64,000 nucleotides of DNA from a virus. The DNA lies in the IMG/VR virus record IMGVR_UViG_3300027805_000008, positions 1-64,000 of that record; one strand, 5' to 3'. The position numbers and the translations under genes were made by a program. Positions within the stretch are counted from its first letter, which is position 1; each line of letters begins with the position of its first letter. The notes under the pieces were generated by a model. That model did not search any database. It worked only from the letters and a program-made list of their open reading frames with translations, and was not told where the DNA came from. Shown here piece after piece: positions 1 through 10,268 of the stretch.

Positions 1-271
1 CTACAGTTGCGAGAACATCAGTTTCCTGATTGAATGGATTTGTGCGTAACACAAGATGAGCGTCTGAAACATCATTCCAAGATTCTGAAATGTGGTCAGT
101 CAGCGGAGATAAACGAACATTCCAGTTCGCCAACTTTGCTTCTTCAAGCATTGTTTGTGTAGTTACATCCTCATCTTGATTGAAGATTCGGTTTGCGAGA
201 TTGTGCCAAGCGGGTTTGCCACGCAAAGCAAAGGCAACATCGTTGCCATTTGTTTCTAGGTTATGAGCCAT
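1..271 (-). CDS. DUF932-family (phage/plasmid-like, TIGR03299-type) protein, 5' part only; runs off window edge
   Basis: Manual translation MAHNLETNGNDVAFALRGKPAWHNLANRIF..MLEEAKLANWNV; the MAH..PAWH.L N-terminus is typical of DUF932; RBS GAAAGGA upstream. Confidence 0.75.
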   Translation of the reverse strand, partial: MAHNLETNGNDVAFALRGKPAWHNLANRIFNQDEDVTTQTMLEEAKLANWNVRLSPLTDHISESWNDVSDAHLVLRTNPFNQETDVLATV

Positions 272-301
272 AGATTTGTCCTTTCGATTAGTTGAGTTCT
301 G

Positions 302-323
302 ATTATAGCAGGGGGGACTGACA
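302..323 (-). promoter_or_regulatory. PafBC-type (RecA-NDp) promoter TGTCAG-N10-TATAAT
   Basis: Exact motif on minus strand directly upstream of DUF932 gene; one of 13 copies. Confidence 0.85.
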
Positions 324-343
324 TTGTCTAGATTAGTTAGTCA

Positions 344-440
344 TTTGTCCGAATTGTCCAATGTGATCATTCTCACAAATTTTGGGGGATTGTGGATAAC
401 TGTCGTAAGGCTGTGGATAACCCCGCAGCTATTGCGGGCC
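344..440. promoter_or_regulatory. Regulatory module 1: GGACA direct repeat, CRP box (362-377), two DnaA boxes (391-399, 412-420), CCCGCA..TGCGGG hairpin (422-438)
   Basis: TGTGA-tcattc-TCACA; TGTGGATAA x2. Confidence 0.75.
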
Positions 441-480
441 AGCTGGGGAAATGGGGCGGAATAAGATCCGCCCCAAGACT

Positions 481-723
481 TTAGCCAAGCAATTTAGTTA
501 GTTCAGTTTTTGGTGGAAGCGACTCACGATTTATAATTAGAGCAGTTGTCTTTTTCTTTTTTAGATTATCATAAACATACGCTCTGATATTTCCGTCAAA
601 CTTACGCATATTAGAAAATACTAATTCAGTTAGGTATTCTTTATCTACACCTTGCTCTGAATAGATTGTCAAATCATTTGCCTTGTTCTCGTCATAGATT
701 TCAACACGATAACGATTTTTCAT
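481..723 (-). CDS. hypothetical early protein
   Basis: 80 aa ORF with RBS and TATAAT at 751-756. Confidence 0.7.
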   Translation of the reverse strand: MKNRYRVEIYDENKANDLTIYSEQGVDKEYLTELVFSNMRKFDGNIRAYVYDNLKKKKTTALIINRESLPPKTELTKLLG

Positions 724-792
724 TTTGTTCCTTTGTTAGTAGGGATATGAATTATAACATTGGGGGCTAGATTTTGTCTAGCCCCACCTGTA

Positions 793-975
793 TTACTTAC
801 CGATTTTTACCATAGCATAACGCATACCTGCGCCTGTATCTAATCTTAGTTTAGTTAGATTAGGGCGAACGGCGATAATCTCTGCGATTGTGCCTGTGAT
901 ACCGCTTTTGCCTGTGGTGAATACATCGCCTTTGCGATAGAAACGACCCTTAGCAACATCTAGTATTGGAGACAT
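793..975 (-). CDS. small beta-rich (SH3/KOW-like) protein; paralog of 1625-1774
   Basis: Start corrected to MSPILD after RBS GAAAGGA; motif GDVFTTGKSGITGTI. Confidence 0.65.
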   Translation of the reverse strand: MSPILDVAKGRFYRKGDVFTTGKSGITGTIAEIIAVRPNLTKLRLDTGAGMRYAMVKIGK

Positions 976-994
976 TTTATTCCTTTCGTTAGTA

Positions 995-1062
995 GGTGGG
1001 TTTGAGCAGTTTTGCGACTTACTCAGGTCGTTTGGGTTCAGGACTTTAGTTCTGCCCCCCAA
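995..1062 (-). ncRNA. candidate structured leader RNA (hairpin plus H-type pseudoknot)
   Basis: CGAC-cuGAGUAa-GUCG stem whose loop GAGUA can pair with downstream UGCUC. Confidence 0.4.
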
Positions 1063-1067
1063 ATTGC

Positions 1068-1490
1068 TTATAGATAACGAGCAATAGCGTTGTATGTGGA
1101 AGTATTTACAACTTCCTCATCTGTCATTTTGAGGATACGAATTGCGTTCGTGATTTCCTCTTTCATCTCATTGTAAGAGTGAGTATGAATTACCTCAAAA
1201 TCCTTTTCAGGTTCAGCAGGGAAAGTTCCCTCTTTTGTGATAATGTCAAAATCAACATTGAGAGTGTTGTTCCAAGAACGATAGTTTGTGCGAAGGTTCT
1301 CAGCCTTTGAGAAGTTGTCAATAGCCCACTTGCCTACTTCCTTGCGCCACTTTTCCTGAGCCTTCTGAAACTTGGCTTCGTTCTCGCCTTGTGTGGCGTA
1401 GTTCTTTTCTAACTCGGCAAGGCGTGTTTCTAGTGCCTTGATTACTTTAGGTGTAGCGATTTTCACGCTAATAGATTTTCCTCTACTCAT
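1068..1490 (-). CDS. hypothetical coiled-coil early protein
   Basis: 140 aa ORF, RBS, own PafBC-type promoter. Confidence 0.8.
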   Translation of the reverse strand: MSRGKSISVKIATPKVIKALETRLAELEKNYATQGENEAKFQKAQEKWRKEVGKWAIDNFSKAENLRTNYRSWNNTLNVDFDIITKEGTFPAEPEKDFEVIHTHSYNEMKEEITNAIRILKMTDEEVVNTSTYNAIARYL

Positions 1491-1522
1491 TTGTTTTCCC
1501 TTTCGTTTGGTTGGTTGGTTTT

Positions 1523-1544
1523 ATTGTATCAGTTGCTACTGACA
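1523..1544 (-). promoter_or_regulatory. PafBC-type promoter TGTCAG-N10-TACAAT
   Basis: exact motif. Confidence 0.85.
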
Positions 1545-1547
1545 TTT

Positions 1548-1612
1548 CACCCGAAGGTGGAGAGTTCTTACTTACGACATTGGACTAGAACACTCTCTAA
1601 ACTGTCCCTGTT
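1548..1612 (-). ncRNA. candidate structured RNA (stem-loop with possible pseudoknot, followed by cUUCGg hairpin)
   Basis: GAGAGugUUCU/AGAACUCUC stem, GGAC/GUCC loop pairing, CACC-UUCG-GGUG. Confidence 0.4.
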
Positions 1613-1624
1613 TCGTTTAGTTTG

Positions 1625-1774
1625 TTAGACTTCTACTGAAGTCCAACGCTCTGACCCATCTACATCAAGTAGCACTCTCGCCACTCCGCTAGGGTGGTTA
1701 TCTACTGCCTTGATTACTCCGACTACGCCTGACTTAGCAGTTGTAATCGTCTGACCGATTTCTAGTGTTGCCAT
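1625..1774 (-). CDS. 49 aa beta-rich protein (not in ORF track); paralog of 793-975
   Basis: MATLEIGQTITTAKSGVVGVIKAVDNHPSGVARVLLDVDGSERWTSVEV with RBS GAAAGGA. Confidence 0.7.
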   Translation of the reverse strand: MATLEIGQTITTAKSGVVGVIKAVDNHPSGVARVLLDVDGSERWTSVEV

Positions 1775-1799
1775 TTTGTTTCCTTTCGTTTAGGTGATT

Positions 1800-1875
1800 A
1801 TTATAGCGGATACTACTGACATTTAGTATCGCTAATCTCATTATTTGAGAAAGTTAGAGTGTGATACTAATCACA
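1800..1875 (-). promoter_or_regulatory. PafBC-type promoter (1800-1821) plus perfect CRP box (1860-1875)
   Basis: TGTCAG-N10-TATAAT; TGTGA-tactaa-TCACA. Confidence 0.8.
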
Positions 1876-2145
1876 CTCAGGAAGCCACGCATCTAAGTGG
1901 TGAGCCTCGATGATAGCCGATGCTGGTGCGCTTTCCTGCCCACGCCAAGTAATTGGGGCGGGTAGTGTGATAAGTCTTTGATAGTCCTCGTCATAGTATG
2001 CGTCAATAGCATCTATACAAGGTTCGACCATTGATCGTGGAACGGGTGGATAGTGATTACTTGATAAGTGGATACCGATTTGTGTTTCCAAGTCCAAGTC
2101 TAATAAGTCATTATTAGCCAAGTCATAAGCGAGATTACTCCCCAT
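1867..2145 (-). CDS. hypothetical early protein
   Basis: 92 aa ORF, translationally coupled to neighbours. Confidence 0.75.
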   Translation of the reverse strand: MGSNLAYDLANNDLLDLDLETQIGIHLSSNHYPPVPRSMVEPCIDAIDAYYDEDYQRLITLPAPITWRGQESAPASAIIEAHHLDAWLPECD

Positions 2146-2419
2146 TATTATCCTCCTCTAGGATAGTTTCTGATAGGTTGTCCATTTCATCTATTGTAGC
2201 AATAAGGTCTGACATTTCTTGCTCGGTCAATAAGATTTTAGTTACAAGGTCTGCGACTTTGCTTGATAGGGCGGCTGAATACATAAATAAGTATTTAGCA
2301 TAGACTTCATCAGGAAGTTCATTTCTGCGAGTGTGTAGTTCTCCCGCCATTCCCATTATGTCCTCATCAAAGATAGAGTTCTTGGTTGCCTCTAAGATTT
2401 CAACGGCAGTTGATAGCAT
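2135..2419 (-). CDS. hypothetical acidic helical protein
   Basis: 94 aa ORF, TAATG coupling. Confidence 0.75.
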   Translation of the reverse strand: MLSTAVEILEATKNSIFDEDIMGMAGELHTRRNELPDEVYAKYLFMYSAALSSKVADLVTKILLTEQEMSDLIATIDEMDNLSETILEEDNNGE

Positions 2420-2625
2420 TAGTTAGCCACCTTTAGAATTGCGTATGAACCGCCTGCGTTGATTTCGTCAATAGCAGGTTGGATAGCAGGAACGATAAGG
2501 TGTTTTAGCATTCCTTCTAGCATAGCAATTTGGTCATACTTAGTTAGTTGTAGGAAGCGTTGCGCTACTGGATGGGTTTCGTCAAACTCGGTAACGAAGT
2601 TTAGAGAGTGTTCTACTTTTATCAT
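2419..2625 (-). CDS. hypothetical early protein
   Basis: 68 aa ORF with RBS GAAAGG. Confidence 0.7.
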   Translation of the reverse strand: MIKVEHSLNFVTEFDETHPVAQRFLQLTKYDQIAMLEGMLKHLIVPAIQPAIDEINAGGSYAILKVAN

Positions 2626-2654
2626 TTGTTGCCTTTCGTTGTTGGTATGTGAGT

Positions 2655-2786
2655 ATTATAGCCGAAGCCACCGACAATTAGTAGCACCGCCTCGGCGTGT
2701 CGTAGCATTTGTGAGGTTTCTCACATTTTCAGGGTTATCCACAACTAAGCCGTAAGCCTGTGGAAAACCCCGCAGTTCTGCGGGCC
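2655..2786 (-). promoter_or_regulatory. Regulatory module: PafBC-type promoter (2655-2676), GTGTC/WhiA-type motif (2693-2702), CRP box (2710-2725), DnaA boxes (2735-2743, 2759-2767), CCCGCAG..CTGCGGG hairpin
   Basis: TGTCGG-N10-TATAAT; TGTGA-ggtttc-TCACA; TTATCCACA. Confidence 0.8.
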
Positions 2787-2797
2787 TAAGCCTGGAG

Positions 2798-2914
2798 CTA
2801 TTCGCTCCAGATCTCAGGGTCCACTTCTGCTAAATATTCTTTAGCAGCTTTCTTTTCTTCGTCGTTACCAACCACGGAATTTATTAATGCATTAAAGTAC
2901 TTTAGCTCCGCCAT
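2798..2914 (-). CDS. 38 aa hypothetical protein (not in ORF track)
   Basis: MAELKYFNALINSVVGNDEEKKAAKEYLAEVDPEIWSE with RBS AAGGAG. Confidence 0.6.
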   Translation of the reverse strand: MAELKYFNALINSVVGNDEEKKAAKEYLAEVDPEIWSE

Positions 2915-2927
2915 TTTTATTTCTCCT

Positions 2928-3647
2928 TTATTTTTTAGTTGCGCTAAATCTAATATCCGCTTTACCATAAACACACAATCCGCATGACACGCATGCAGAA
3001 CCGTTAGTTGAAATTAGCGGAATGCTTTTATTATTTTCAGGACACTTAGCGCCAGGCTTACCAGTTAATTCTTTCATGATACTTTCAGTCACGGCGAATG
3101 TCTTACCAAGGTAGGCCAAGCGGATACCTTGATTAAGTTTTAAATCGTGAGCAGTGTCTTTATTCTCATCATCCGTTGAATAGTAAAGAGATAGATTAGA
3201 GATATCCTTAAGAATAAGCGCTGCAGACTTTACACGTGTGTAAACCCAAAACTGCACGTCGGTGTTATTATCGATAACGGTCTTCCACGCATATGCGTAG
3301 GTATCGTTAAAGAAATCGCCGTCCCAGTGTATACGGAAGAGCATTTTAGCATTGCGCTTAACACAATCAGCCTTAAACTCTGCAATCATATCTTCAATTA
3401 GGTTAACCATTACGTGCTCATCCGCATTGCGTAGTAATTCCCAATTGTGTAAGAGAACGGCTCTTACTCCCTTGTATACCTTTTCGAGTTTTCCTGCATA
3501 GCATACGCTTTCACAAATACTAGTGGCACCAGGGCACGAGAAAGCCTTACCAGCGGGCAATCCAAAAGTGTTGGCAATTGTTGGGGTTTTTCCATTAGGG
3601 GAGACGGCATTAGCAACCTTTCGATCATTTGAACGTTTTAATTTCAT
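2928..3647 (-). CDS. GP88-family (radical-SAM-like, Cys-cluster) phage protein
   Basis: SCPGAT.IC..VCYA, RIHWDGDFF, FWVYTR, C..CGLC motifs; start moved to MKLKRS (leaderless after promoter 3655-3676). Confidence 0.75.
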   Translation of the reverse strand: MKLKRSNDRKVANAVSPNGKTPTIANTFGLPAGKAFSCPGATSICESVCYAGKLEKVYKGVRAVLLHNWELLRNADEHVMVNLIEDMIAEFKADCVKRNAKMLFRIHWDGDFFNDTYAYAWKTVIDNNTDVQFWVYTRVKSAALILKDISNLSLYYSTDDENKDTAHDLKLNQGIRLAYLGKTFAVTESIMKELTGKPGAKCPENNKSIPLISTNGSACVSCGLCVYGKADIRFSATKK

Positions 3648-3654
3648 GGGGGTA

Positions 3655-3676
3655 ATTGTAGCAGTATGGTCCGACA
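3655..3676 (-). promoter_or_regulatory. PafBC-type promoter TGTCGG-N10-TACAAT (leaderless transcript)
   Basis: exact motif, ATG 7 nt after the -10 hexamer. Confidence 0.85.
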
Positions 3677-3678
3677 TT

Positions 3679-3888
3679 TTAGTAATCCTCATCCATACCA
3701 AAGCCAGCAGAAGCAAGGGCATCAGAATCAGCCCAACCAGTTAGTTCATAGAATTCCATTTCTTCGGAATCGTAGCATTCACCACACATATAGTCATCGC
3801 CATAAATCTCATATTCTTCTTCAGAATAGAAAGTCTCAGTAGCACCACAAATTTCATGGTTCAAGCAAGCAACAATAAAAGTATTCAT
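3679..3888 (-). CDS. very acidic Cys-containing small protein
   Basis: MNTFIVAC..CGEC..DALASAGFGMDEDY; TAATG-coupled start. Confidence 0.7.
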   Translation of the reverse strand: MNTFIVACLNHEICGATETFYSEEEYEIYGDDYMCGECYDSEEMEFYELTGWADSDALASAGFGMDEDY

Positions 3889-3980
3889 TAGTAGCACTCC
3901 CCGCACATTGGATAGTAGTATTCGCCGTCATCGGTTATAAATTGGGTGGTATCTTGACCACATGAAGAACATTTGTTCAT
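3888..3980 (-). CDS. 30 aa CxxC..CxxC micro zinc-ribbon (not in ORF track)
   Basis: MNKCSSCGQDTTQFITDDGEYYYPMCGECY with RBS GAAAGG. Confidence 0.6.
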   Translation of the reverse strand: MNKCSSCGQDTTQFITDDGEYYYPMCGECY

Positions 3981-4009
3981 GAGTTGACCTTTCGTTTGTA
4001 GATATTGGA

Positions 4010-4140
4010 ATTATAGCAGGTTAGACTGACATTTTCCACGCCACGCCCAAAAATCTAGGGTGTTTTAGATCACACCCGTAACGACACGCCCGACTCCGCA
4101 GCTCTGCGGGCATCCCGCCTGTTTGTCAAGCGGGACACCT
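4010..4140 (-). promoter_or_regulatory. Regulatory module: PafBC-type promoter (4010-4031), CRP-like box (4059-4074), CGACACGCCC (4082-4091), CCGCAG..CTGCGG hairpin
   Basis: TGTCAG-N10-TATAAT; GGTGT-tttaga-TCACA. Confidence 0.75.
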
Positions 4141-4145
4141 TTTGT

Positions 4146-4382
4146 TTATTTAGAAATTGCTTTTTGTCTGCGAATTTCTTTTTGCAAATTCTTTAATTGC
4201 TTTTCTAAAACTAAAGTTCTAGCAGATGAGTATTTATAAATTCCCGCTTTCTTTGCTTCTGCTACATAGTAGCGGTCATACTCCAACTCGTGCTTTGCAA
4301 TTAGTTTGCGAATTGCATTGTTGCGAACAGTGCTCATAACTGTTTGATAGTTTTTAGTTCCTGATTTAATTGGCTTAGCCAT
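4146..4382 (-). CDS. basic hypothetical protein
   Basis: 78 aa Lys/Arg-rich ORF with RBS. Confidence 0.7.
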   Translation of the reverse strand: MAKPIKSGTKNYQTVMSTVRNNAIRKLIAKHELEYDRYYVAEAKKAGIYKYSSARTLVLEKQLKNLQKEIRRQKAISK

Positions 4383-4385
4383 TTC

Positions 4386-4520
4386 TTATTCCCTTTCGTT
4401 TTTATTTTTGTGTTTTAGTTTGCGTGTGTATTTCTTTTTATTGCGAACAGGTTGCGCCGCATTACTACGACGCAATTCCTGAATGCGTTTTACCTTATCT
4501 CGAAGTGAAGTTTGGAACAT
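4386..4520 (-). CDS. 44 aa highly basic protein with ArfA-like KKxYxRKxKH motif (not in ORF track)
   Basis: MFQTSLRDKVKRIQELRRSNAAQPVRNKKKYTRKLKHKNKNERE. Confidence 0.6.
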   Translation of the reverse strand: MFQTSLRDKVKRIQELRRSNAAQPVRNKKKYTRKLKHKNKNERE

Positions 4521-4686
4521 TGTATCCACTCGCTTCGTGAAATCGCTTTACATCAAATCTAGGATTATCTTTCGCAAACATTTCTGCAAAATCATTTACC
4601 ATTTTAGAAAATAAAGCGGGGTGAGTTTTATTGCTCGCATACTTTAGAATTTCTGCGGTTGCTATGTAATCTTTGCGTGTCATCAT
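4495..4686 (-). CDS. MTRKDY-type small phage protein; paralog of 7470-7640
   Basis: MMTRKDY..A.IL...DFA.MFA.DN..F. Confidence 0.75.
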   Translation of the reverse strand: MMTRKDYIATAEILKYASNKTHPALFSKMVNDFAEMFAKDNPRFDVKRFHEASGYNVPNFTSR

Positions 4687-4889
4687 TTTACAACGACCTT
4701 TCTGCCTTCACGATAAAATACTTTCGTGTAGCATTTTCCGCTAGGTGTATAAAGATTTACAGTTGAGTATTCGTTAGCAAATCCCCAATCGGTGAATAGA
4801 AAAAAGTTTTCCCAAGCCCCGTATTCGTTTTCGTATTCAGCAGACCAATGCGGAGCATTAGAGTCATAAGCGCAAGTTAGTTTATACAT
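4683..4889 (-). CDS. hypothetical early protein
   Basis: 68 aa ORF, RBS. Confidence 0.7.
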   Translation of the reverse strand: MYKLTCAYDSNAPHWSAEYENEYGAWENFFLFTDWGFANEYSTVNLYTPSGKCYTKVFYREGRKVVVK

Positions 4890-4936
4890 TTAGGTTTTCC
4901 CTTTCGTTAGTTGAGCATAAGCATTTATTTATAGTT

Positions 4937-4958
4937 ATTGTATCACCTACCACCGACA
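4937..4958 (-). promoter_or_regulatory. PafBC-type promoter TGTCGG-N10-TACAAT
   Basis: exact motif. Confidence 0.8.
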
Positions 4959-5001
4959 AGGTGGCAAGTGTTGAGCAATTGTCGCAGATAAAGATTTCCA
5001 T

Positions 5002-5148
5002 TTATTTATTCTCCTGAAAAAATCCAAGAGGATTACATTGACAAGCCTCTACATCAAACATTTCTTCGTTGCCGTAGTATAGCCAGCCTTTGCCGTAGCA
5101 GGTATCACACTCTAAAATCTGAGTGTATAATTCTTTCATTCTTCCCAT
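5002..5148 (-). CDS. 48 aa CxxC..CxC zinc-binding protein (not in ORF track)
   Basis: MGRMKELYTQILECDTCYGKGWLYYGNEEMFDVEACQCNPLGFFQENK with RBS. Confidence 0.65.
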   Translation of the reverse strand: MGRMKELYTQILECDTCYGKGWLYYGNEEMFDVEACQCNPLGFFQENK

Positions 5149-5180
5149 TTTAGTTTTCCTTTCGTGTTTTGATAAATCAG

Positions 5181-5202
5181 ATTATAGCACCGACTACCGA
5201 CA
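5181..5202 (-). promoter_or_regulatory. PafBC-type promoter TGTCGG-N10-TATAAT
   Basis: exact motif. Confidence 0.85.
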
Positions 5203-5203
5203 T

Positions 5204-5347
5204 TTATTCGGCTTCGGGGGTGTGGAATAAGGCTCCCTCATTTAGCAAGCCTAATTCAATGTTGAACATTTCATCGGGGGTGGCTTCGGATAAATCTACC
5301 CAGCCAGCGCCGTTTTCATTCATTCTAAAAATTTCAATGTATCCCAT
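5204..5347 (-). CDS. 47 aa acidic protein (not in ORF track)
   Basis: MGYIEIFRMNENGAGWVDLSEATPDEMFNIELGLLNEGALFHTPEAE. Confidence 0.6.
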   Translation of the reverse strand: MGYIEIFRMNENGAGWVDLSEATPDEMFNIELGLLNEGALFHTPEAE

Positions 5348-5349
5348 TA

Positions 5350-5556
5350 TTATTCACCTACCTTTACTGCGATTGTTGCGAATTTATTTCGCAGACCGCC
5401 AGTTCTAATTTCGATTAGATAGGCTTCAGTATTTTCGCCATACCAAATTTCTGGGCGAGGTTCTGCTGAAACAATTTCGCCCTGAAAGTGGCGATTAGTT
5501 GAGCGATAGTTTTTCCCTACAAGTAGGCTTTCGATTGTGTATAGTTTGGTAGCCAT
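5350..5556 (-). CDS. small beta-barrel-like protein; paralog of 6561-6776
   Basis: YTIESLLVGKNY..AE.R...EAY.I..R...ATIAV. Confidence 0.7.
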   Translation of the reverse strand: MATKLYTIESLLVGKNYRSTNRHFQGEIVSAEPRPEIWYGENTEAYLIEIRTGGLRNKFATIAVKVGE

Positions 5557-5591
5557 TGGCAGACCTTCTTTCGTTTGTTGTTATGTATGGA

Positions 5592-5806
5592 ATTATACAC
5601 GAACGGACTGACATTTTCACATTACTAGCCAGTAAATCCAAATAGTGAGACGCTCAAGCCGTGTGATACTAATCACATAAAAATGTCCGATTTGTCTGTC
5701 AAGCCGACACGCCGCAGAATTCAGGGATTTTTATAACGAGTTCATAACGACACGCCCGACCCCGTGCCTTTGCGGGCCAGCTTGATTTTGTCAAGCCGAC
5801 ACGCCG
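5592..5806 (-). promoter_or_regulatory. Regulatory module: PafBC-type promoter (5592-5613), CRP box (5662-5677), GACA repeat, three GACACGCC motifs, ATAACGA direct repeat, CCCG..CGGG hairpin
   Basis: TGTCAG-N10-TATAAT; TGTGA-tactaa-TCACA; GACAC at 5706, 5749, 5798. Confidence 0.8.
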
Positions 5807-5813
5807 TTAGTTA

Positions 5814-6005
5814 TTAAATATTTTCATTTTCTTTTATTGCATCTTCAAAATCTAACAGTGATTGGTGATACGCAACTGGATCACATTCTCGCAAAATTTG
5901 AGACGGATAAAATTTTAAGTAACCAATTTCAACAACTGGATAAGCCTCGTCTAACATTTCGTCAAACATTGTTTTAATTTCAAAAGCAGTTTCAAAATCT
6001 AACAT
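5814..6005 (-). CDS. acidic small phage protein
   Basis: FDEMLDEAYP....ILRECDPVAY. Confidence 0.7.
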   Translation of the reverse strand: MLDFETAFEIKTMFDEMLDEAYPVVEIGYLKFYPSQILRECDPVAYHQSLLDFEDAIKENENI

Positions 6006-6109
6006 TATTTATTTTCCTTTGAGTTAGTAGCGGATAGAATTGCGAGAGCCTCTTTTTTAGAAGCCTCTCGTTGCGCTATAACAAGCGCCTTATATTCATC
6101 AAGTTTCAT
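5999..6109 (-). CDS. 36 aa helical peptide; paralog of 6776-6880 (not in ORF track)
   Basis: MKLDEYKALVIAQREASKKEALAILSAT.. Confidence 0.65.
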
Positions 6110-6310
6110 TTATTTAACCTCCAAACAATTTACGCAAAAGCATTTTGGGCTTTCGCTAATTAAGATTTTTAACAACGCTTTGCGTTGCCAAATGCTAAGA
6201 CCATAGGTGCTTTTAGCACCGCCATTATTCCAATCGTGCAAGATACGATTTTCTAACGCACCAGATATTCCTAGTGCTAATCCGATATTTGTTTTTTCTA
6301 GTGTAGTCAT
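6110..6310 (-). CDS. small Cys-containing protein; paralog of 6880-7035
   Basis: NRILHDWNNGG..RKALLK..CxCxxC; start corrected to MTTLEK. Confidence 0.7.
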   Translation of the reverse strand: MTTLEKTNIGLALGISGALENRILHDWNNGGAKSTYGLSIWQRKALLKILISESPKCFCVNCLEVK

Positions 6311-6344
6311 TTGAGACCACCTTTCTTTATTTTCTAATACTAGT

Positions 6345-6557
6345 ATTCTAGCAGGGGGGTCTGACATTTACTGACCAGTAATCGGTCAAATCGGACATTT
6401 TGAAATGTGTTTAGTATCACATCATTTTTTTACGCTCAAATTCCTGGGGTGTTTAATATCACATCATAAGCGACACGCCCGAGCCCGCAAAAGACTGCGG
6501 GCCGATCTGAGCAAAGTCAAGCCGACACGCCGTTGTGTCGGTATGATTTACATCACA
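6345..6557 (-). promoter_or_regulatory. Regulatory module: PafBC-type promoter (6345-6366), GGACA motif, three CRP-like boxes (6406-6421, 6448-6463, 6542-6557), GACAC motifs, CCCGCA..TGCGGG hairpin (6484-6501)
   Basis: TGTCAG-N10-TAGAAT; N5-N6-TCACA boxes. Confidence 0.75.
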
Positions 6558-6560
6558 ATT

Positions 6561-6776
6561 TCAGTAATCTGAAATTCTAACGGCAACCGTAGCCCACTCA
6601 TCTCTGAGTGATCCCGTTGGGCGATAACGAATAGCAAAAGCCTCATAGCCCTCTGGTGGATAAACATCTTCACGCTTTTCTGCGTGGTTGATAATTCCAC
6701 CATTGAAACGGCGGCGTAGCGAAGTAGGCTTGTAGTATTGGTCTACAAGTAAATCAACGATTGAATAACCTCTCAT
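6561..6776 (-). CDS. small beta-barrel-like protein; paralog of 5350-5556
   Basis: YSIVDLLVDQYY..AEKRE..EAFAIRYR..ATVAV. Confidence 0.7.
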   Translation of the reverse strand: MRGYSIVDLLVDQYYKPTSLRRRFNGGIINHAEKREDVYPPEGYEAFAIRYRPTGSLRDEWATVAVRISDY

Positions 6777-6880
6777 TATTCACTCTCCTTTTTGATAGTA
6801 GCGGATAGGATTTCAAGCGCCTCTTTTTTAGACGCTTCACGTTGTTCAATAACGTGTTTTTTGAATTCTTCTAAATTCAT
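6776..6880 (-). CDS. 34 aa helical peptide; paralog of 5999-6109 (not in ORF track)
   Basis: MNLEEFKKHVIEQREASKKEALEILSATIKKESE, TAATG-coupled at both ends. Confidence 0.7.
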   Translation of the reverse strand: MNLEEFKKHVIEQREASKKEALEILSATIKKESE

Positions 6881-7035
6881 TATTTAGCACACTCGCAATC
6901 TTTATGAGTAGGGATAGAAAATAAATACTTTAGCAAAGCCTTACGCTCTGATAAAGAAATTTCGGGGTGAAAGTTTTTCACTCCACCGTGTTGATAATCA
7001 AACACAATTTTATTGAAAGTTTTTTCGGATAACAT
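6880..7035 (-). CDS. small protein; paralog of 6110-6310
   Basis: NKIVFDYQHGG..RKALLK..DCEC. Confidence 0.65.
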   Translation of the reverse strand: MLSEKTFNKIVFDYQHGGVKNFHPEISLSERKALLKYLFSIPTHKDCECAK

Positions 7036-7037
7036 TA

Positions 7038-7220
7038 TTACATCACCCAACTTTCTTGAGTGTATGATAACCACTCACCAAGAGTCATCAAACCCTTGTA
7101 TTCATTACATTTTCCGCAAAAGATTTCATTTGCGTAGTCTGAGCAAAAAGCGCAGACGATTAGATTTGCCTCATCGGCACTTACATTTGAGAGAGTAATC
7201 TCTCTGATTAGTGTAGTCAT
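7038..7220 (-). CDS. CxxC..CxxC zinc-ribbon small protein
   Basis: CAFC..CGKC; RBS GAAAGGTGG. Confidence 0.7.
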   Translation of the reverse strand: MTTLIREITLSNVSADEANLIVCAFCSDYANEIFCGKCNEYKGLMTLGEWLSYTQESWVM

Positions 7221-7269
7221 TATTGACCACCTTTCTTGAAATAACCTTTATTTCATCTTGATACCTAGT

Positions 7270-7460
7270 ATCCTACCACCTACCACTGACATTTTGACCC
7301 CTTTTTCGGGCGTGTCGGAAAACTATTTTTGTGATTTAGGTCATGTGGATAACTTACGCTCAAATTCCAGGGGTTTTCCACACCTGTGAATAAAGCTGTG
7401 GATAACGCCCGCAAAAGACTGCGGGCCGAATAATTATGCATTTTCGTGAATAATTATTCG
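7270..7460 (-). promoter_or_regulatory. Regulatory module: PafBC-type promoter (7270-7291), GTGTC, CRP-like box (7330-7345), four DnaA boxes (7344, 7374, 7385, 7397), hairpin (7408-7425), tandem ARG-box-like operator (7427-7460)
   Basis: TGTCAG-N10-TAGGAT; TGTGGATAA x2, TTTTCCACA, TGTGAATAA; CGAATAATTATGCA / TGAATAATTATTCG at 20-bp period. Confidence 0.8.
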
Positions 7461-7469
7461 CCTTTTATT

Positions 7470-7640
7470 TTATTTATTACACGCCTCTAAAAATTTATCT
7501 GCGTTAAATTGCGAATTATCTTCCGCAAACATTGACGCAAAATCATCAACTAGATCGTGATAAGTAAACTCATCACCGATTAAATCTTTATAACTAGAAA
7601 GAATATCGGCGGTCTTTACATAGTCTTTTCGTGTCATCAT
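7470..7640 (-). CDS. MTRKDY-type small protein; paralog of 4495-4686 (not in ORF track)
   Basis: MMTRKDYVKTADILSSY..LVDDFASMFAEDNSQFNADKFLEAC. Confidence 0.75.
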   Translation of the reverse strand: MMTRKDYVKTADILSSYKDLIGDEFTYHDLVDDFASMFAEDNSQFNADKFLEACNK

Positions 7641-7641
7641 T

Positions 7642-7752
7642 TTAATTTAACCCATTTTCTTTTATGTCTTTTATTACGGCGATTAGTAGCGGGATAGTTA
7701 CCCCCGCTAATAGTAATTGAACGGCGGTAGTTAGTAAGCGATTAGTAGTCAT
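7642..7752 (-). CDS. 36 aa single-TM membrane peptide (not in ORF track)
   Basis: MTTNRLLTTAVQLLLAGVTIPLLIAVIKDIKENGLN, TAATG-coupled. Confidence 0.6.
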   Translation of the reverse strand: MTTNRLLTTAVQLLLAGVTIPLLIAVIKDIKENGLN

Positions 7753-7889
7753 TAGTTATTCTTCTTCCATTTATAAATCTTGTAAGCAATTAGCGCAATA
7801 GTAGCGGGTATAATTACTTGCCAAGATAAAGCGATATAGCAGACATAGGTATCAAACTCTAAGCCGTAGTCATTTAGTTCTAGTGTCAT
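7752..7889 (-). CDS. 45 aa single-TM membrane peptide (not in ORF track)
   Basis: ..YIALSWQVIIPATIALIAYKIYKWKKNN. Confidence 0.6.
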   Translation of the reverse strand: MTLELNDYGLEFDTYVCYIALSWQVIIPATIALIAYKIYKWKKNN

Positions 7890-8072
7890 TTATTTTATTC
7901 CTAACATAGTAGCGACATTATCTAATTCTTCATCTGTAAGATGGTCTAACTCAATAGCCTTAGAGAAACCGAAGAAATCTTCTTCATCTTCTTGTTCTAC
8001 TTCATCTACATCATCTAAGTGGCGATAAGCATCTGCTACATCTGCCTGAATAGTATCCCATTTAGTCATCAT
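7890..8072 (-). CDS. very acidic small protein
   Basis: 60 aa, D/E-rich (DDVDEVEQEDEED). Confidence 0.7.
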   Translation of the reverse strand: MMTKWDTIQADVADAYRHLDDVDEVEQEDEEDFFGFSKAIELDHLTDEELDNVATMLGIK

Positions 8073-8224
8073 TACTTTACCTCTACTCCTCTTACATTGT
8101 AGGTAAATCCCTTACCTAGTTTATTTAGTTCTTCCATTACTTTTAGTAGTTCATCTGCGCTAGTAGCCTTGTTATCTACTGATAGTAGGTTAGCGCCTTG
8201 CCATAGTGAGTATGTTATTGTCAT
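8072..8224 (-). CDS. 50 aa hypothetical protein (not in ORF track)
   Basis: MTITYSLWQGANLLSVDNKATSADELLKVMEELNKLGKGFTYNVRGVEVK. Confidence 0.65.
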   Translation of the reverse strand: MTITYSLWQGANLLSVDNKATSADELLKVMEELNKLGKGFTYNVRGVEVK

Positions 8225-8263
8225 TTTATTTTCTATTCTTTCTGTTAGTAGTTATTAGTTAGT

Positions 8264-8314
8264 GGGTCTTATTCGCTAGGCTCACCTTTCGGATTATTTG
8301 CTAGGCTCATACCC
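8264..8314 (-). repeat. Twofold-symmetric leader element: TGAGCCTAGCRAATAA x2 around a CC-GAAA-GG hairpin, closed by GGGT/ACCC
   Basis: directly visible. Confidence 0.7.
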
Positions 8315-8332
8315 TTATTTAGTTATGGTGTA

Positions 8333-8398
8333 ACCTTATCATAGGTTACTGACATTTAGGGGGATTTAGCCCCTAGTGTCGGTGTGAGTTACCTCACA
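8333..8398 (-). promoter_or_regulatory. PafBC-type promoter (8333-8354), GTGTC, perfect CRP box (8383-8398)
   Basis: TGTCAG-N10-TAAGGT; TGTGA-gttacc-TCACA. Confidence 0.8.
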
Positions 8399-8541
8399 TT
8401 TACTAGGGCGTGTGTAGCGTAGTTACCGCCACACATTACGCATAGTGTCCAAGCGGTTACTCTACCGCAACCATTAGAACACGCCACATAGTGGCTAGGT
8501 GTATGGTAGTCGTTACGACTTTCCCAAATACGATTAGTCAT
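8389..8541 (-). CDS. small zinc-binding protein
   Basis: MTNRIWESR..CSNGC..CVMC; start corrected. Confidence 0.6.
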   Translation of the reverse strand: MTNRIWESRNDYHTPSHYVACSNGCGRVTAWTLCVMCGGNYATHALVNVR

Positions 8542-8542
8542 A

Positions 8543-8752
8543 TTAGTTAGCCTTTCTATTAGATAGAACCCAAGCGGACTCATTAGGTGATAGATACTTA
8601 TGTGAGATTAGGTTCTCACTAGCAACCATATAGACATATGCCATACGGCTTATGTAGTTGCCATTAGATAGGCGAAAGATATTTTTATCCTTAGTGTTAC
8701 TAGAGGACATAGGGTGAGTAGGTTCTACTACTACTGATACTGAGTGAGTCAT
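8543..8752 (-). CDS. hypothetical protein; first gene of leftward early region
   Basis: 69 aa, RBS GAAAGGAG. Confidence 0.7.
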   Translation of the reverse strand: MTHSVSVVVEPTHPMSSSNTKDKNIFRLSNGNYISRMAYVYMVASENLISHKYLSPNESAWVLSNRKAN

Positions 8753-8801
8753 TTTGACTCCTTTCTTGTTACTAACCTTTAGTAACTTTCTTTATATATA
8801 A

Positions 8802-8930
8802 AGCGTAACACGGGGCACTGACATTTTCAAGCACCAACACTAGACAAATCGGACATTTTGAAAAAAAAGTTGGTGATTAGCGTCACAATTAGCCTAATAT
8901 GGGCGCACTATATAGACAAAACGGACATTT
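8802..8930 (-). promoter_or_regulatory. PafBC-type promoter (8802-8823), GACAAAWCGGACA x2 (8843-8855, 8915-8927), CRP-like box (8872-8887)
   Basis: TGTCAG-N10-TACGCT; GGTGA-ttagcg-TCACA. Confidence 0.75.
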
Positions 8931-9080
8931 ATAAACTCTGGATCATACAAATAAAATCTCTATTAACATTTTAGTAAATCTGATATTGTGGTTGACTGAA
9001 ATATATAGTAGAATGATCACATGATAAAAAGCGGGAACCGAATATAAAGCTTTACCTAACAAGCCTTAAGTAAAGGCTAA

Positions 9081-9155
9081 GGGGATATAGCTTAATCTGG
9101 TTAAAGCATTTGTCTTATATACAAACGACTCTGGGTTCAAATCCCAGTATCCCTA
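9081..9155 (+). tRNA. tRNA-Ile (anticodon UAU)
   Basis: Cloverleaf GGGGATA/TATCCCT, anticodon arm TTTGT-CTTATAT-ACAAA, T arm CTGGG-TTCAAAT-CCCAG. Confidence 0.85.
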
Positions 9156-9409
9156 CTACATAAAAATATTTTTAAAACTCTTGACCTAGCAAATTTTATA
9201 ATGTTATACTTAAGACTGGTTTGTGGGGGCTTACACTGAAACTCATAATGACGGAAATGTGTAGCTTCTCTATCCTACAAAATTGATTTTAAATTTTGGG
9301 GGGTAGGGGGGCTTTCCTAAAATCTAAAAATCTGGAAATGTAATTAAAAGAAATATATATCATATATATCTTAGTTGACTAGAATATAGATAGAGTATAC
9401 AATAAAACA

Positions 9410-10113: not shown

Positions 10114-10186
10114 TGGACCATAGCTCAGTTGGCAGAGCGTAGAGCTGTTAACTCTAATGTCCCAGGTTCGAGCCCTGGTGGTCCAG
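10114..10186 (+). tRNA. tRNA-Asn (GUU)
   Basis: TGGACCA/TGGTCCA acceptor, TAGAG-CTGTTAA-CTCTA anticodon arm, GTTCGAG T loop. Confidence 0.9.
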
Positions 10187-10190
10187 CAAA

Positions 10191-10263
10191 CTCTTCGTAG
10201 CTCAGAGGACAGAGCATTCGGTTTCTACCCGACTGGTCGCAGGTTCGACTCCTGCCGAAGAGA
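10191..10263 (+). tRNA. tRNA-Arg (UCU)
   Basis: CTCTTCG/CGAAGAG acceptor, TCGG-TTTCTAC-CCGA, GCAGG-TTCGACT-CCTGC. Confidence 0.85.
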
Positions 10264-10268
10264 CTATA

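What the first reader, a model, noticed from the sequence alone, without database searches (positions are those of the whole stretch)
302..8823. Thirteen early promoters exactly match the host PafBC DNA-damage promoter (TGTCRG-N10-TANNNT)
Seen: 13 minus-strand copies of TGTC(A/G)G exactly 10 bp before a TANNNT hexamer, at 302, 1523, 1800, 2655, 3655, 4010, 4937, 5181, 5592, 6345, 7270, 8333 and 8802. Each sits directly upstream of an RBS/ORF or a leaderless ATG. I saw no such promoter upstream of the structural or replication genes, which use ordinary -35/-10 promoters. Known: TGTCGG-N10-TANNNT is the actinobacterial RecA-independent promoter (RecA-NDp). It is activated by the WYL-domain heterodimer PafBC, which senses ssDNA and redirects sigmaA RNAP to a -26 element. 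Inference: the phage places its whole putative first-wave programme under the host DNA-damage/ssDNA sensor, so entry of phage DNA (or UV stress) would switch on phage genes. Alternatively, a phage-encoded PafBC mimic lies outside this window.
Basis: partly seen in the sequence, partly recalled or inferred. Interest (0 to 1): 0.95.

Follow-up and report, generated by a model that had tools for sequence, protein, structure and literature searches.

The report
Phage early promoters copying PafBC boxes
An uncultured freshwater phage of actinobacteria drives its block of small, probably early genes from 14 promoters built like the host promoters switched on by PafBC, the cell's single-stranded-DNA alarm protein. 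It therefore probably plugs its first genes into the host DNA-damage switch, but nothing has been tested at the bench.

Summary
All copies lie on the minus strand at 302-8823, against 1.1 expected, and there are none elsewhere in the 91-kb record. Spacing is strictly 10 bp and there is no -35 consensus. The window has 38% GC but is still an actinophage: it carries WhiB and GP88, and its gene order matches Streptomyces cluster-BE phages. Those Streptomyces relatives use ordinary -35/-10 early promoters. Freshwater relatives share the box: 646 sites in 80 IMG/VR loci, against 7-13 at wrong spacings. GP88 starts exactly 7 nt after the -10 here and in 17 relatives, which fits the predicted transcription start. 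The phage encodes no WYL domain, PafC-type HTH or sigma factor. Streamlined 1.3-Mb actinobacterial genomes carry pafB-pafC orthologues with the DNA-reading arginines intact. They have the same box before recA (followed by an SOS box) and before carD-like and dnaE-like genes. The most likely reader is host PafBC (about 0.6). The host is unknown, no start sites were mapped, and the near-consensus extended -10 may allow PafBC-independent firing. This scan has reported the same thing in at least 55 other genomes. I found no paper describing it.

The parts
8802..8823 (-). PafBC-type promoter (TGTCAG-N10-TACGCT) upstream of ORF 8543-8752
8333..8354 (-). PafBC-type promoter (TGTCAG-N10-TAAGGT); leader of about 105 nt to ORF 8072-8224
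7270..7291 (-). PafBC-type promoter (TGTCAG-N10-TAGGAT) upstream of ORF 7038-7220
6345..6366 (-). PafBC-type promoter (TGTCAG-N10-TAGAAT) upstream of ORF 6110-6310
5592..5613 (-). PafBC-type promoter (TGTCAG-N10-TATAAT) upstream of ORF 5350-5556
5181..5202 (-). PafBC-type promoter (TGTCGG-N10-TATAAT) upstream of ORF 5002-5148
4937..4958 (-). PafBC-type promoter (TGTCGG-N10-TACAAT) inside ORF 4882-5001, upstream of ORF 4683-4889
4010..4031 (-). PafBC-type promoter (TGTCAG-N10-TATAAT) upstream of a small zinc-ribbon ORF starting near 3980
3655..3676 (-). PafBC-type promoter (TGTCGG-N10-TACAAT), 7 nt before the ATG of GP88 (leaderless)
2928..3647 (-). GP88-family gene (PF17338, an actinophage family). 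It is the only early ORF with a known family. Its start marks the predicted transcription start.
   Evidence: E 2.7e-53, residues 1-226 match profile positions 1-228; 17 of 34 homologues in relatives start 7 nt after the -10 of such a site.
2655..2676 (-). PafBC-type promoter (TGTCGG-N10-TATAAT) upstream of ORF 2419-2625
2193..2214 (-).
1800..1821 (-). PafBC-type promoter (TGTCAG-N10-TATAAT) upstream of ORF 1625-1774
1523..1544 (-). PafBC-type promoter (TGTCAG-N10-TACAAT) upstream of ORF 1068-1490
302..323 (-). PafBC-type promoter (TGTCAG-N10-TATAAT) upstream of ORF 2-271, which runs off the contig
362..8887 (.). Eight CRP/GlxR-like palindromes TGTGA-N6-TCACA, interspersed with the promoters (362, 1860, 2710, 5662, 6406, 6542, 8383, 8872)
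   Evidence: 8 found against 2.3 expected, all in this block; family-wide, 392 two-strand hits (about 196 palindromes) against 0 control in 80 loci.
391..7405 (.). Three clusters of DnaA-box-like TTWTCCACA (391-420, 2735-2767, 7344-7405)
   Evidence: 7 found against 1.7 expected, all in this block; 176 against 16 control in 80 loci.
343..8930 (.). Five copies of AAWTCGGACAWWT (343, 5681, 6388, 8846, 8918) upstream of promoters. The motif is shared with Streptomyces phage Mildred21.

Best explanation
The 14 sites are sigma-A-type promoters of the PafBC ('RecA-NDp') class. Each has a -10 hexamer TANNNT and a TGTCRG box at -28 to -23, and none has a -35 element. Each drives one to a few tiny genes, almost all without known family, in the minus-strand left arm. 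This arm corresponds to the terminal-repeat small-gene block of related Streptomyces phages and so probably holds early, host-takeover-type genes. The proposed mechanism is inferred. Host RNA polymerase with sigma A pauses at the -10. Host PafBC, activated by single-stranded DNA, inserts between sigma region 4 and the DNA. Its PafB helix-turn-helix reads the GTC of the box ('sigma adaptation') and transcription fires. The single-stranded DNA could come from processing of the injected phage DNA ends, from UV damage, or from phage replication. About 70% of the sites here (10 of 14, by my reading of the sequences; 62% across the family) also carry a TG extended -10 and a near-consensus TATAAT. 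The promoters are therefore probably active at a basal level without PafBC and boosted by it. What is shown: motif, spacing, strand, enrichment, conservation across a large phage family, no phage-encoded PafBC-like protein, and the same box plus pafBC in candidate host lineages. What is inferred: binding by PafBC, timing, and the source of the single-stranded DNA.
For: Enrichment and strict N10 spacing. No information in the -35 window across 531 non-redundant family sites; consensus aAA-TGTC-A/G-G-T-S-S...tGnTAtAAT. Canonical -35/-10 matches in 1-9400 are at chance, 26 against 25.6. The published PafBC motif is tGTCgg(N10)tA(N3)T, with the PafB HTH contacting -23 to -28 and GTC near-invariant across actinobacteria (PMC8635444). 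Actinophage identity: WhiB at 48.7 bits, GP88, capsid protein 58% identical and gene order syntenic with Stanwilliamsviridae. Family-wide conservation; in IMG/VR at least 119 stretches at N10 against 10 at N11; 646 N10 sites against 7-13 at N8, N9 and N11 in 80 loci, on one strand, up to 17 per locus. Transcription-start geometry: GP88 starts 7 nt after the -10 here and in 17 of 34 relatives. No WYL, HTH_PafC or sigma70_r2 in the record. Proteins shared only with box-bearing relatives include no recognisable DNA-binding factor. Host side: HTH_PafC in 284 of 301 and 25 of 31 sampled actinobacterial genomes. Streamlined 1.3-1.4-Mb genomes have adjacent PafB/PafC orthologues with the recognition helix RMFERDK identical, including R46 and R50. 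The same genomes have TTGTCAGTGG-N7-TAnnnT followed by an SOS box before recA and boxes before carD-like and dnaE-like genes. Other promoters in the same phage lack the box, so it is a class-specific signal.
Against: The host is unknown below phylum level. In the second actinobacterial class sampled, the five genomes of 1.0-1.1 Mb gave no HTH_PafC match. The phage boxes are preceded by AAA, whereas host boxes are preceded by T. The AAA form is barely enriched in 61 genomes of the candidate host order, 31 against 21 control. The extended -10 could make PafBC unnecessary. Streptomyces relatives, whose hosts also have PafBC, use ordinary -35/-10 promoters instead. PafBC needs single-stranded DNA, which seems awkward for the very first transcription event. 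There are no 5'-end data.
Confidence: 0.6

Rival explanations
1. The promoters fire on their extended -10 alone, and the box is read by a phage protein, not PafBC. That protein could be an activator delivered with the DNA (like T4 MotA/AsiA sigma appropriation) or a later repressor that shuts the early block off.
For: 62% of family sites have a TG extended -10 with near-consensus TATAAT. The A-tract before the box is phage-specific. Streptomyces relatives lack the box, so it travels with the phage lineage. The record is only 84% complete. It encodes a 288-aa protein whose N-terminal domain is fused to MuF head proteins in other phages, so it is a possible ejected protein.
Against: A phage factor would have no reason to copy the host PafBC box in sequence, position and exact spacing. 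No DNA-binding candidate was found among proteins specific to box-bearing relatives. The 288-aa protein's conserved domain shows no similarity to any DNA-binding fold.
Confidence: 0.2
2. The boxes mainly act as a sponge. Fourteen or more sites per genome, multiplied by replication, would draw activated PafBC-RNA polymerase away from the host's repair and defence promoters. Expression of the phage genes would be secondary. This is not exclusive of the main reading.
For: In candidate host genomes the small PafBC-type regulon includes a 30-45-kb island with a DNA methylase, a GHKL ATPase, an Abi-like protease and peptidases. The phage family carries up to 17 boxes per locus.
Against: Every box sits in correct promoter geometry before a gene, and one conserved gene is leaderless at the predicted start. 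A pure decoy would not need this. PafBC binds only together with RNA polymerase at a -10 (PMC11804915).
Confidence: 0.1
3. A different host regulator reads the box: another WYL-type or HTH paralogue with PafB-like specificity, rather than PafBC itself.
For: Actinobacteria carry several WYL proteins (PMC6789036). The small genomes have a third, 735-748-aa WYL-domain protein.
Against: Sequence and spacing equal the PafBC box found at recA in the same genomes. The third WYL protein is long, with a different architecture.
Confidence: 0.07
4. Repeated DNA without promoter function, arising by chance or from duplicated modules.
For: None beyond the repetitive look of the region.
Against: Enrichment is twelve-fold with strict spacing and strand. 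The flanking sequences differ between sites. The motif is conserved across hundreds of sites in diverged phages. All sites lie before ORFs.
Confidence: 0.01

Closest known systems
PafBC-dependent (RecA-NDp, recA P1-type) promoters of Mycobacterium and other actinobacteria, read by 'sigma adaptation' (PMC8635444, PMC11804915, PMC6789036)
   Same: TGTCRG(TG) box at -28 to -23, exactly 10 bp before TANNNT, and no -35 element. The same box precedes recA in candidate host genomes.
   Different: Here it is on a phage, in arrays of 14-17, before small genes of unknown function rather than repair genes. It is preceded by an A-tract and usually joined to a TG extended -10 with TATAAT. PafBC binding has not been tested.
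T4 middle promoters (MotA box at -30 plus -10, read by MotA/AsiA sigma appropriation)
   Same: A hybrid promoter in which an activator box replaces the -35 element next to a normal -10, used to time a phage gene class.
   Different: T4 supplies its own activator and co-activator. No such proteins were found here, and the box equals a host activator's site.
Early promoters of the terminal-repeat gene block of Streptomyces cluster-BE phages (Stanwilliamsviridae, e.g. Mildred21)
   Same: Homologous genome position and layout: a minus-strand left arm of tiny genes, each with its own promoter and hairpin. They also share the upstream AAATCGGACAT motif.
   Different: Mildred21 uses -35-like TAGACA/TTGACG, a 17-nt spacer and TGnTAGACT. 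It has only one chance-level TGTCRG site per repeat copy.
Host-takeover modules of SPO1 and T5 (terminal-repeat early genes with many strong host-sigma promoters)
   Same: Many closely spaced promoters drive tiny early genes at a genome end.
   Different: Those are canonical -35/-10 promoters read by the unmodified host holoenzyme (my own knowledge, not tested here).

Membership tests
PafBC-dependent (RecA-NDp) promoter class | -26 element tGTCgg with invariant GTC at about -28 to -23 | tested here: met
   14 of 14 sites. The search pattern fixes TGTC, so invariance is by construction. Independent support comes from spacing specificity and from flanking T-S-S resembling the published 'gtg'.
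PafBC-dependent (RecA-NDp) promoter class | -10 hexamer TANNNT exactly 10 bp downstream of the box | tested here: met
   N10 gives 14 sites against 0-2 at N5-N16. In relatives, 646 against 7-13 at N8, N9 and N11. In IMG/VR, at least 119 against 10.
PafBC-dependent (RecA-NDp) promoter class | No -35 consensus | tested here: met
   Information content is at most 0.11 bit at positions -12 to -4 relative to the box in 531 sites. The canonical promoter scan is at chance. A minority have a partial TTGAAA-like hexamer.
PafBC-dependent (RecA-NDp) promoter class | The host encodes PafB and PafC with the GTC-reading arginines | tested here: inconclusive
   The host is unknown. PafC-type HTH was found in 284 of 301 and 25 of 31 sampled actinobacterial genomes. 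Streamlined genomes have pafB-pafC with RMFERDK conserved. The five genomes of 1.0-1.1 Mb gave no match.
PafBC-dependent (RecA-NDp) promoter class | Transcription starts about 7 nt after the -10 | tested here: inconclusive
   Indirect only: the leaderless GP88 start lies 7 nt after the -10 here and in 17 of 34 relatives. Metatranscriptome contigs cannot show 5' ends.
PafBC-dependent (RecA-NDp) promoter class | Transcription depends on PafBC and single-stranded DNA; PafBC occupies the site | not testable with these tools
   Needs reporter, in vitro transcription or ChIP experiments.
Sigma appropriation by phage factors (T4 MotA/AsiA type) | A phage-encoded activator (and anti-sigma) that reads the upstream box | tested here: inconclusive
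   No WYL, PafC-HTH or sigma domain. No DNA-binding family among proteins specific to box-bearing relatives. However, the record is 84% complete and most small ORFs have no known family.
Canonical sigma-A -35/-10 early promoters (as in Streptomyces BE phages) | A TTGACA-like hexamer 16-18 bp upstream of the -10 | tested here: not met
   Only 4 of the 14 sites pass a loose canonical scan, and the region as a whole is at chance. There is no information at -35.

The most novel reading that the evidence does not exclude
A globally abundant family of freshwater actinophages has swapped the -35 element of its terminal-repeat early promoters for the host PafBC box. The cell's own single-stranded-DNA alarm, triggered by incoming phage DNA ends or by sunlight damage, would then fire the phage's first genes. 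At the same time the arrays would compete with the host's PafBC-controlled repair genes and a defence-like island. In that case the phage would be exploiting the signal the host uses to detect it.
Probability: 0.35. Interest if true: 0.9.

Novelty: new variant of a known kind. Interest (0 to 1): 0.8.

Why it matters
PafBC 'sigma adaptation' is known only as a host DNA-damage response. If phages use it to launch infection, this would be a new way of timing phage genes, using a host stress sensor instead of a phage-made factor. It would also give a concrete model for how single-stranded DNA sensing links phage attack, host defence and repair. The test is direct: the M. smegmatis in vitro transcription system with PafBC and single-stranded DNA already exists (PMC11804915). 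The phage family is abundant in lakes worldwide (at least 15 studies). Its probable hosts are among the commonest freshwater bacteria, so the mechanism could shape infection dynamics with light and UV.

Tried and rejected
- Nucleotide search of the early block against cultured phages found no match.
- I laid metatranscriptome contigs from four RNA runs on 1-9400. The block is present in RNA libraries of three studies, but contigs show no starts, ends or strand. Some cross promoters, and some are chimeric at the repeated box. I draw no conclusion about transcription.
- I first took 38% GC to rule out an actinobacterial host. I dropped this after finding WhiB, GP88 and synteny with Streptomyces phages.
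- Contigs related through WhiB sit in genome bins labelled Bacteroidia, Arenimonas, Bifidobacterium and others. I treated these as mis-binned phage contigs, not as host evidence.
- My first IMG/VR pattern had the wrong spacing (N11) by my own error. I kept it as a control.
- An ATG or GTG 5-8 nt after the -10 occurs in 52 of 531 family sites, about what chance predicts. This is not general evidence for leaderless starts; only the GP88 case is conserved.
- The 288-aa conserved protein was tested as a candidate phage-delivered factor. It has no PDB sequence match, no Pfam family and no fold match, so there is no sign that it binds DNA.
- The AAA-prefixed box was used to look for a host lineage. 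Enrichment in the candidate order is weak, 31 against 21, so it does not help assign a host.
Their size (1.2-1.8 Mb across 61 genomes of the order) suggests acI/Nanopelagicales, but that is my inference.


Full report
**Observation.** The pattern TGTCRG-N10-TANNNT matches 14 times in the window. All matches are on the minus strand between 302 and 8823, against 1.13 expected and a maximum of 4 in 100 shuffles. It missed 2193-2214. The full record is an IMG/VR virus contig of 91,329 bp, estimated 84% complete. It holds no further copy on either strand. Spacing is strict: 14 sites at N10 and 0-2 at every other spacing from N5 to N16. Reading the minus strand, every site precedes a same-strand ORF. 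Thirteen have a 25-105-nt leader ending in a conserved AACGAAAGG-type ribosome-binding site. One (3655-3676) lies 7 nt before an ATG.

**What the phage is.** The window has 34-42% GC, which at first seemed to rule out an actinobacterial host. The evidence points the other way.
- The major capsid protein is 58-59% identical to those of Streptomyces cluster-BE phages.
- Gene order matches Streptomyces phage Mildred21 (Stanwilliamsviridae): a minus-strand left arm of tiny genes, then glycosyltransferase, ribonucleotide reductase, portal, protease and capsid.
- The record encodes a WhiB-family protein at 82,507-82,860 (48.7 bits, above the Pfam cut-off). [quoted passage not shown]
- The one early ORF with a known family is GP88, an actinophage family.
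- The DNA occurs in freshwater metagenomes from at least 15 studies.

In Mildred21 the left-arm genes lie inside the roughly 10.8-kb direct terminal repeat (positions; PMC5764925). By synteny, our block is the equivalent gene set. That is the only basis for calling it 'early'.

**Promoter architecture.** The 14 sites share the consensus AAA-TGTC-A/G-G-T-x-x...TGnTAtAAT, with no conservation further upstream. A loose scan for canonical -35/-10 promoters in 1-9400 finds 26 matches against 25.6 expected. Only four of the 14 sites pass it. Promoters in the plus-strand part of the genome are TGnTAnnnT extended -10 sites without the box. The box is therefore a class-specific signal, not a general feature of this phage's promoters. 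With the -10 at -12 to -7, the box falls at -28 to -23.

**Comparison with the literature.** Genome-wide PafBC sites in M. smegmatis give tGTCgg(N10)tA(N3)T. The PafB helix-turn-helix contacts -23 to -28. R46 and R50 read the two guanines of GTC. GTC is almost invariant across actinobacteria, and these promoters lack a -35 (PMC8635444). PafBC joins RNA polymerase-sigma A at such promoters only when bound to single-stranded DNA (PMC11804915). Sequence, position, spacing and the missing -35 all match.

**Relatives.**
- Contigs that encode WhiB relatives carry the same arrays on the strand of their small genes. One 85-kb contig uses mainly TGTCGGTGG, which is closer to the mycobacterial form.
- The same pattern with one extra base of spacing returned 10 single hits. 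That was my own typing error, kept as a control.
- In the 80 fetched loci (778 kb, median GC 0.38) there are 646 N10 sites, against 7-13 at N8, N9 and N11.
- 71 of the 80 loci have three or more sites, on one strand, with up to 17 per locus.
- A logo of 531 non-redundant sites shows no information at the -35 window. A/G at the R position is 0.81/0.19. T-S-S follows the box. TG of an extended -10 is present in 62%.
- Mildred21 differs. It has one chance-level site per repeat copy, and its left-arm promoters are TAGACA/TTGACG, a 17-nt spacer and TGnTAGACT.

The freshwater lineage thus has the box where its Streptomyces relatives have a -35.

**Transcription start.** GP88 (PF17338, E 2.7e-53) aligns from its residue 1 to profile position 1. 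Its ATG is 7 nt after the TACAAT of site 3655-3676. Among 34 GP88 homologues in related loci, 17 start exactly 7 nt after the -10 of a box-bearing site. Most of the others have a leader with a ribosome-binding site. This conserved leaderless geometry is indirect evidence that transcription starts where the promoter model predicts. Metatranscriptome contigs cover the block but cannot show 5' ends.

Sixteen proteins are shared with a box-bearing relative but not with Mildred21. Of the ten non-early ones I scanned, the recognisable ones are MazG, a pyrimidine-dimer glycosylase, a PA14 protein and a zinc ribbon. None has a known DNA-binding domain. One is a 288-aa protein next to whiB. Its N-terminal 115 residues are about 97% identical across more than 100 protein clusters. 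The domain recurs in 4,008 representative proteins, some fused to Phage_Mu_F and ADP-ribosyltransferase domains, so the protein may be packaged and ejected. Its confident model (pLDDT 90) is all-alpha and matches no solved fold. Nothing suggests that it binds DNA. A phage factor cannot be excluded, because the record is incomplete and most small ORFs have no known family.

**Host side.**
- The PafC-type HTH is found in 284 of 301 sampled genomes of one actinobacterial class and in 25 of 31 of a second. The first tally includes seven genomes flagged unpublished (G047, G011, G019, G028, G040, G036, G034). No individual claim rests on them.
- In the second class, the five genomes of 1.0-1.1 Mb gave no match.
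- I examined streamlined single-contig genomes of 1.3-1.4 Mb. They belong to an order whose 61 sampled genomes are almost all 1.2-1.8 Mb. This suggests acI/Nanopelagicales, but no names are given.
- The three of these genomes searched for WYL domains (G221, G269, G237) each have two adjacent WYL genes. For G221, these are clear orthologues of M. smegmatis PafB and PafC (E 7e-34 and 2e-26 to chains of 7p5x). The PafB recognition helix RMFERDK is identical, including R46 and R50.
- recA is preceded by TTGTCAGTGGCGCCTG(C/A)TACCTT, immediately followed by an SOS box.
- Genome-wide, TGTCRGT-N9-TANNNT gives 42 hits against 19 control in five genomes. These include sites before a carD-like gene, a dnaE-like polymerase gene, and a small membrane-protein gene with an SOS box.

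The box is therefore a small DNA-damage regulon signal in such hosts, not a general promoter feature. The phage copies it specifically.

**Differences and caveats.**
- The phage boxes are preceded by AAA, the host boxes by T. The AAA form is barely enriched in the candidate order, 31 against 21.
- Most phage sites have a strong extended -10, so PafBC may boost rather than license transcription.
- The host, the timing and the source of single-stranded DNA are unknown.

**Context.** The block also carries other motifs at well above chance. All of these are family-wide:
- CRP/GlxR-like palindromes;
- DnaA-box clusters;
- GGCGTGTCG repeats;
- an AAATCGGACAT motif shared with Mildred21.

The early block therefore looks densely wired to DNA-binding proteins, several of them plausibly host regulators.

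**Earlier work.** This scan has reported the same promoter class in at least 55 other genomes, with follow-up verdicts like mine. Searches of the paper library for PafBC or RecA-NDp together with phage or mycobacteriophage found no description of phage promoters of this class. A 2025 paper links pafBC to mycobacteriophage resistance (cited in PMC12848934).

**Verdict.** The most likely mechanism is host PafBC sigma adaptation at phage early promoters (about 0.6). The main rival is a phage-encoded reader of the box acting on constitutive extended -10 promoters (about 0.2).

Noticed in passing
Loci L037-L041, L174 (genomes G269, G237, G185; also G221, G299 by position): In streamlined 1.3-1.4-Mb actinobacterial genomes, many PafBC-type boxes cluster in one 30-45-kb stretch. 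There the -10 sits exactly 6-7 nt before an ATG, so the genes are leaderless. The products include an N6/N4 DNA methylase, a GHKL ATPase (HATPase_c_3), a trypsin-like peptidase, a CAAX/Abi-type protease, an RNase_H_2-superfamily protein and a TPR protein. This looks like a variable or defence island under the DNA-damage activator.
   Followed up: partly
window 343-355, 5681-5693, 6388-6400, 8846-8858, 8918-8930; L009 (Mildred21) left arm: The motif AAATCGGACAT(TT) lies upstream of early promoters. It also occurs in Streptomyces phage Mildred21's left arm as a core (A/T)(C/T)GGACAT(T): two copies read (A)TATCGGACATT and one reads TTTGGACAT. It gives 62 hits against 2 control in 80 related loci. 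A cis element conserved across hosts of very different GC suggests a conserved phage DNA-binding protein.
   Followed up: partly
window 362-8887 and 391-7405: CRP/GlxR-like palindromes TGTGA-N6-TCACA (8 against 2.3 expected) and three clusters of DnaA-box-like TTWTCCACA (7 against 1.7) are confined to the early block. GGCGTGTCG repeats occur there too. All are family-wide.
   Followed up: partly
record 81402-82265 (L177:17402-18265), outside the window, next to whiB: A 288-aa protein has an N-terminal 115-residue domain about 97% identical across more than 100 protein clusters. The domain is present in 4,008 representative proteins, some fused to Phage_Mu_F and ADP-ribosyltransferase domains. 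It has an acidic middle region and a C-terminal KKSIWDGTF motif. The model is confident, all-alpha and matches no solved fold. It is possibly an ejected effector domain of unknown function.
   Followed up: partly
record 86274-86741 (L178:2274-2741): A pyrimidine-dimer DNA glycosylase (PF03013, E 3.6e-20) is shared with the box-bearing relative but not with Mildred21. A UV-repair gene in a phage whose early promoters look responsive to DNA damage.
   Followed up: no
window 9081-9156, 10114-10187, 10191-10264: Genes for tRNA-Ile(TAT), tRNA-Asn(GTT) and tRNA-Arg(TCT) lie on the plus strand between the early block and the rest of the minus-strand arm. These A/T-ending-codon tRNAs fit a phage with lower GC than its host.
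   Followed up: no
L026, L028, L031 and other related loci: In many relatives the -10 (often TATACT) is followed 4-6 nt later by a second conserved (G)TATAA(AG) element. Its meaning is unknown.
   Followed up: no
L041:788 (G237:C1:424788): One site in a host-like genome, TGTCAGTCGCCTCTGCTATAAT with a long leader and AAAGGAGG, resembles the phage promoters more than the host's leaderless ones. It lies upstream of a vWA-type gene region.
   Followed up: no
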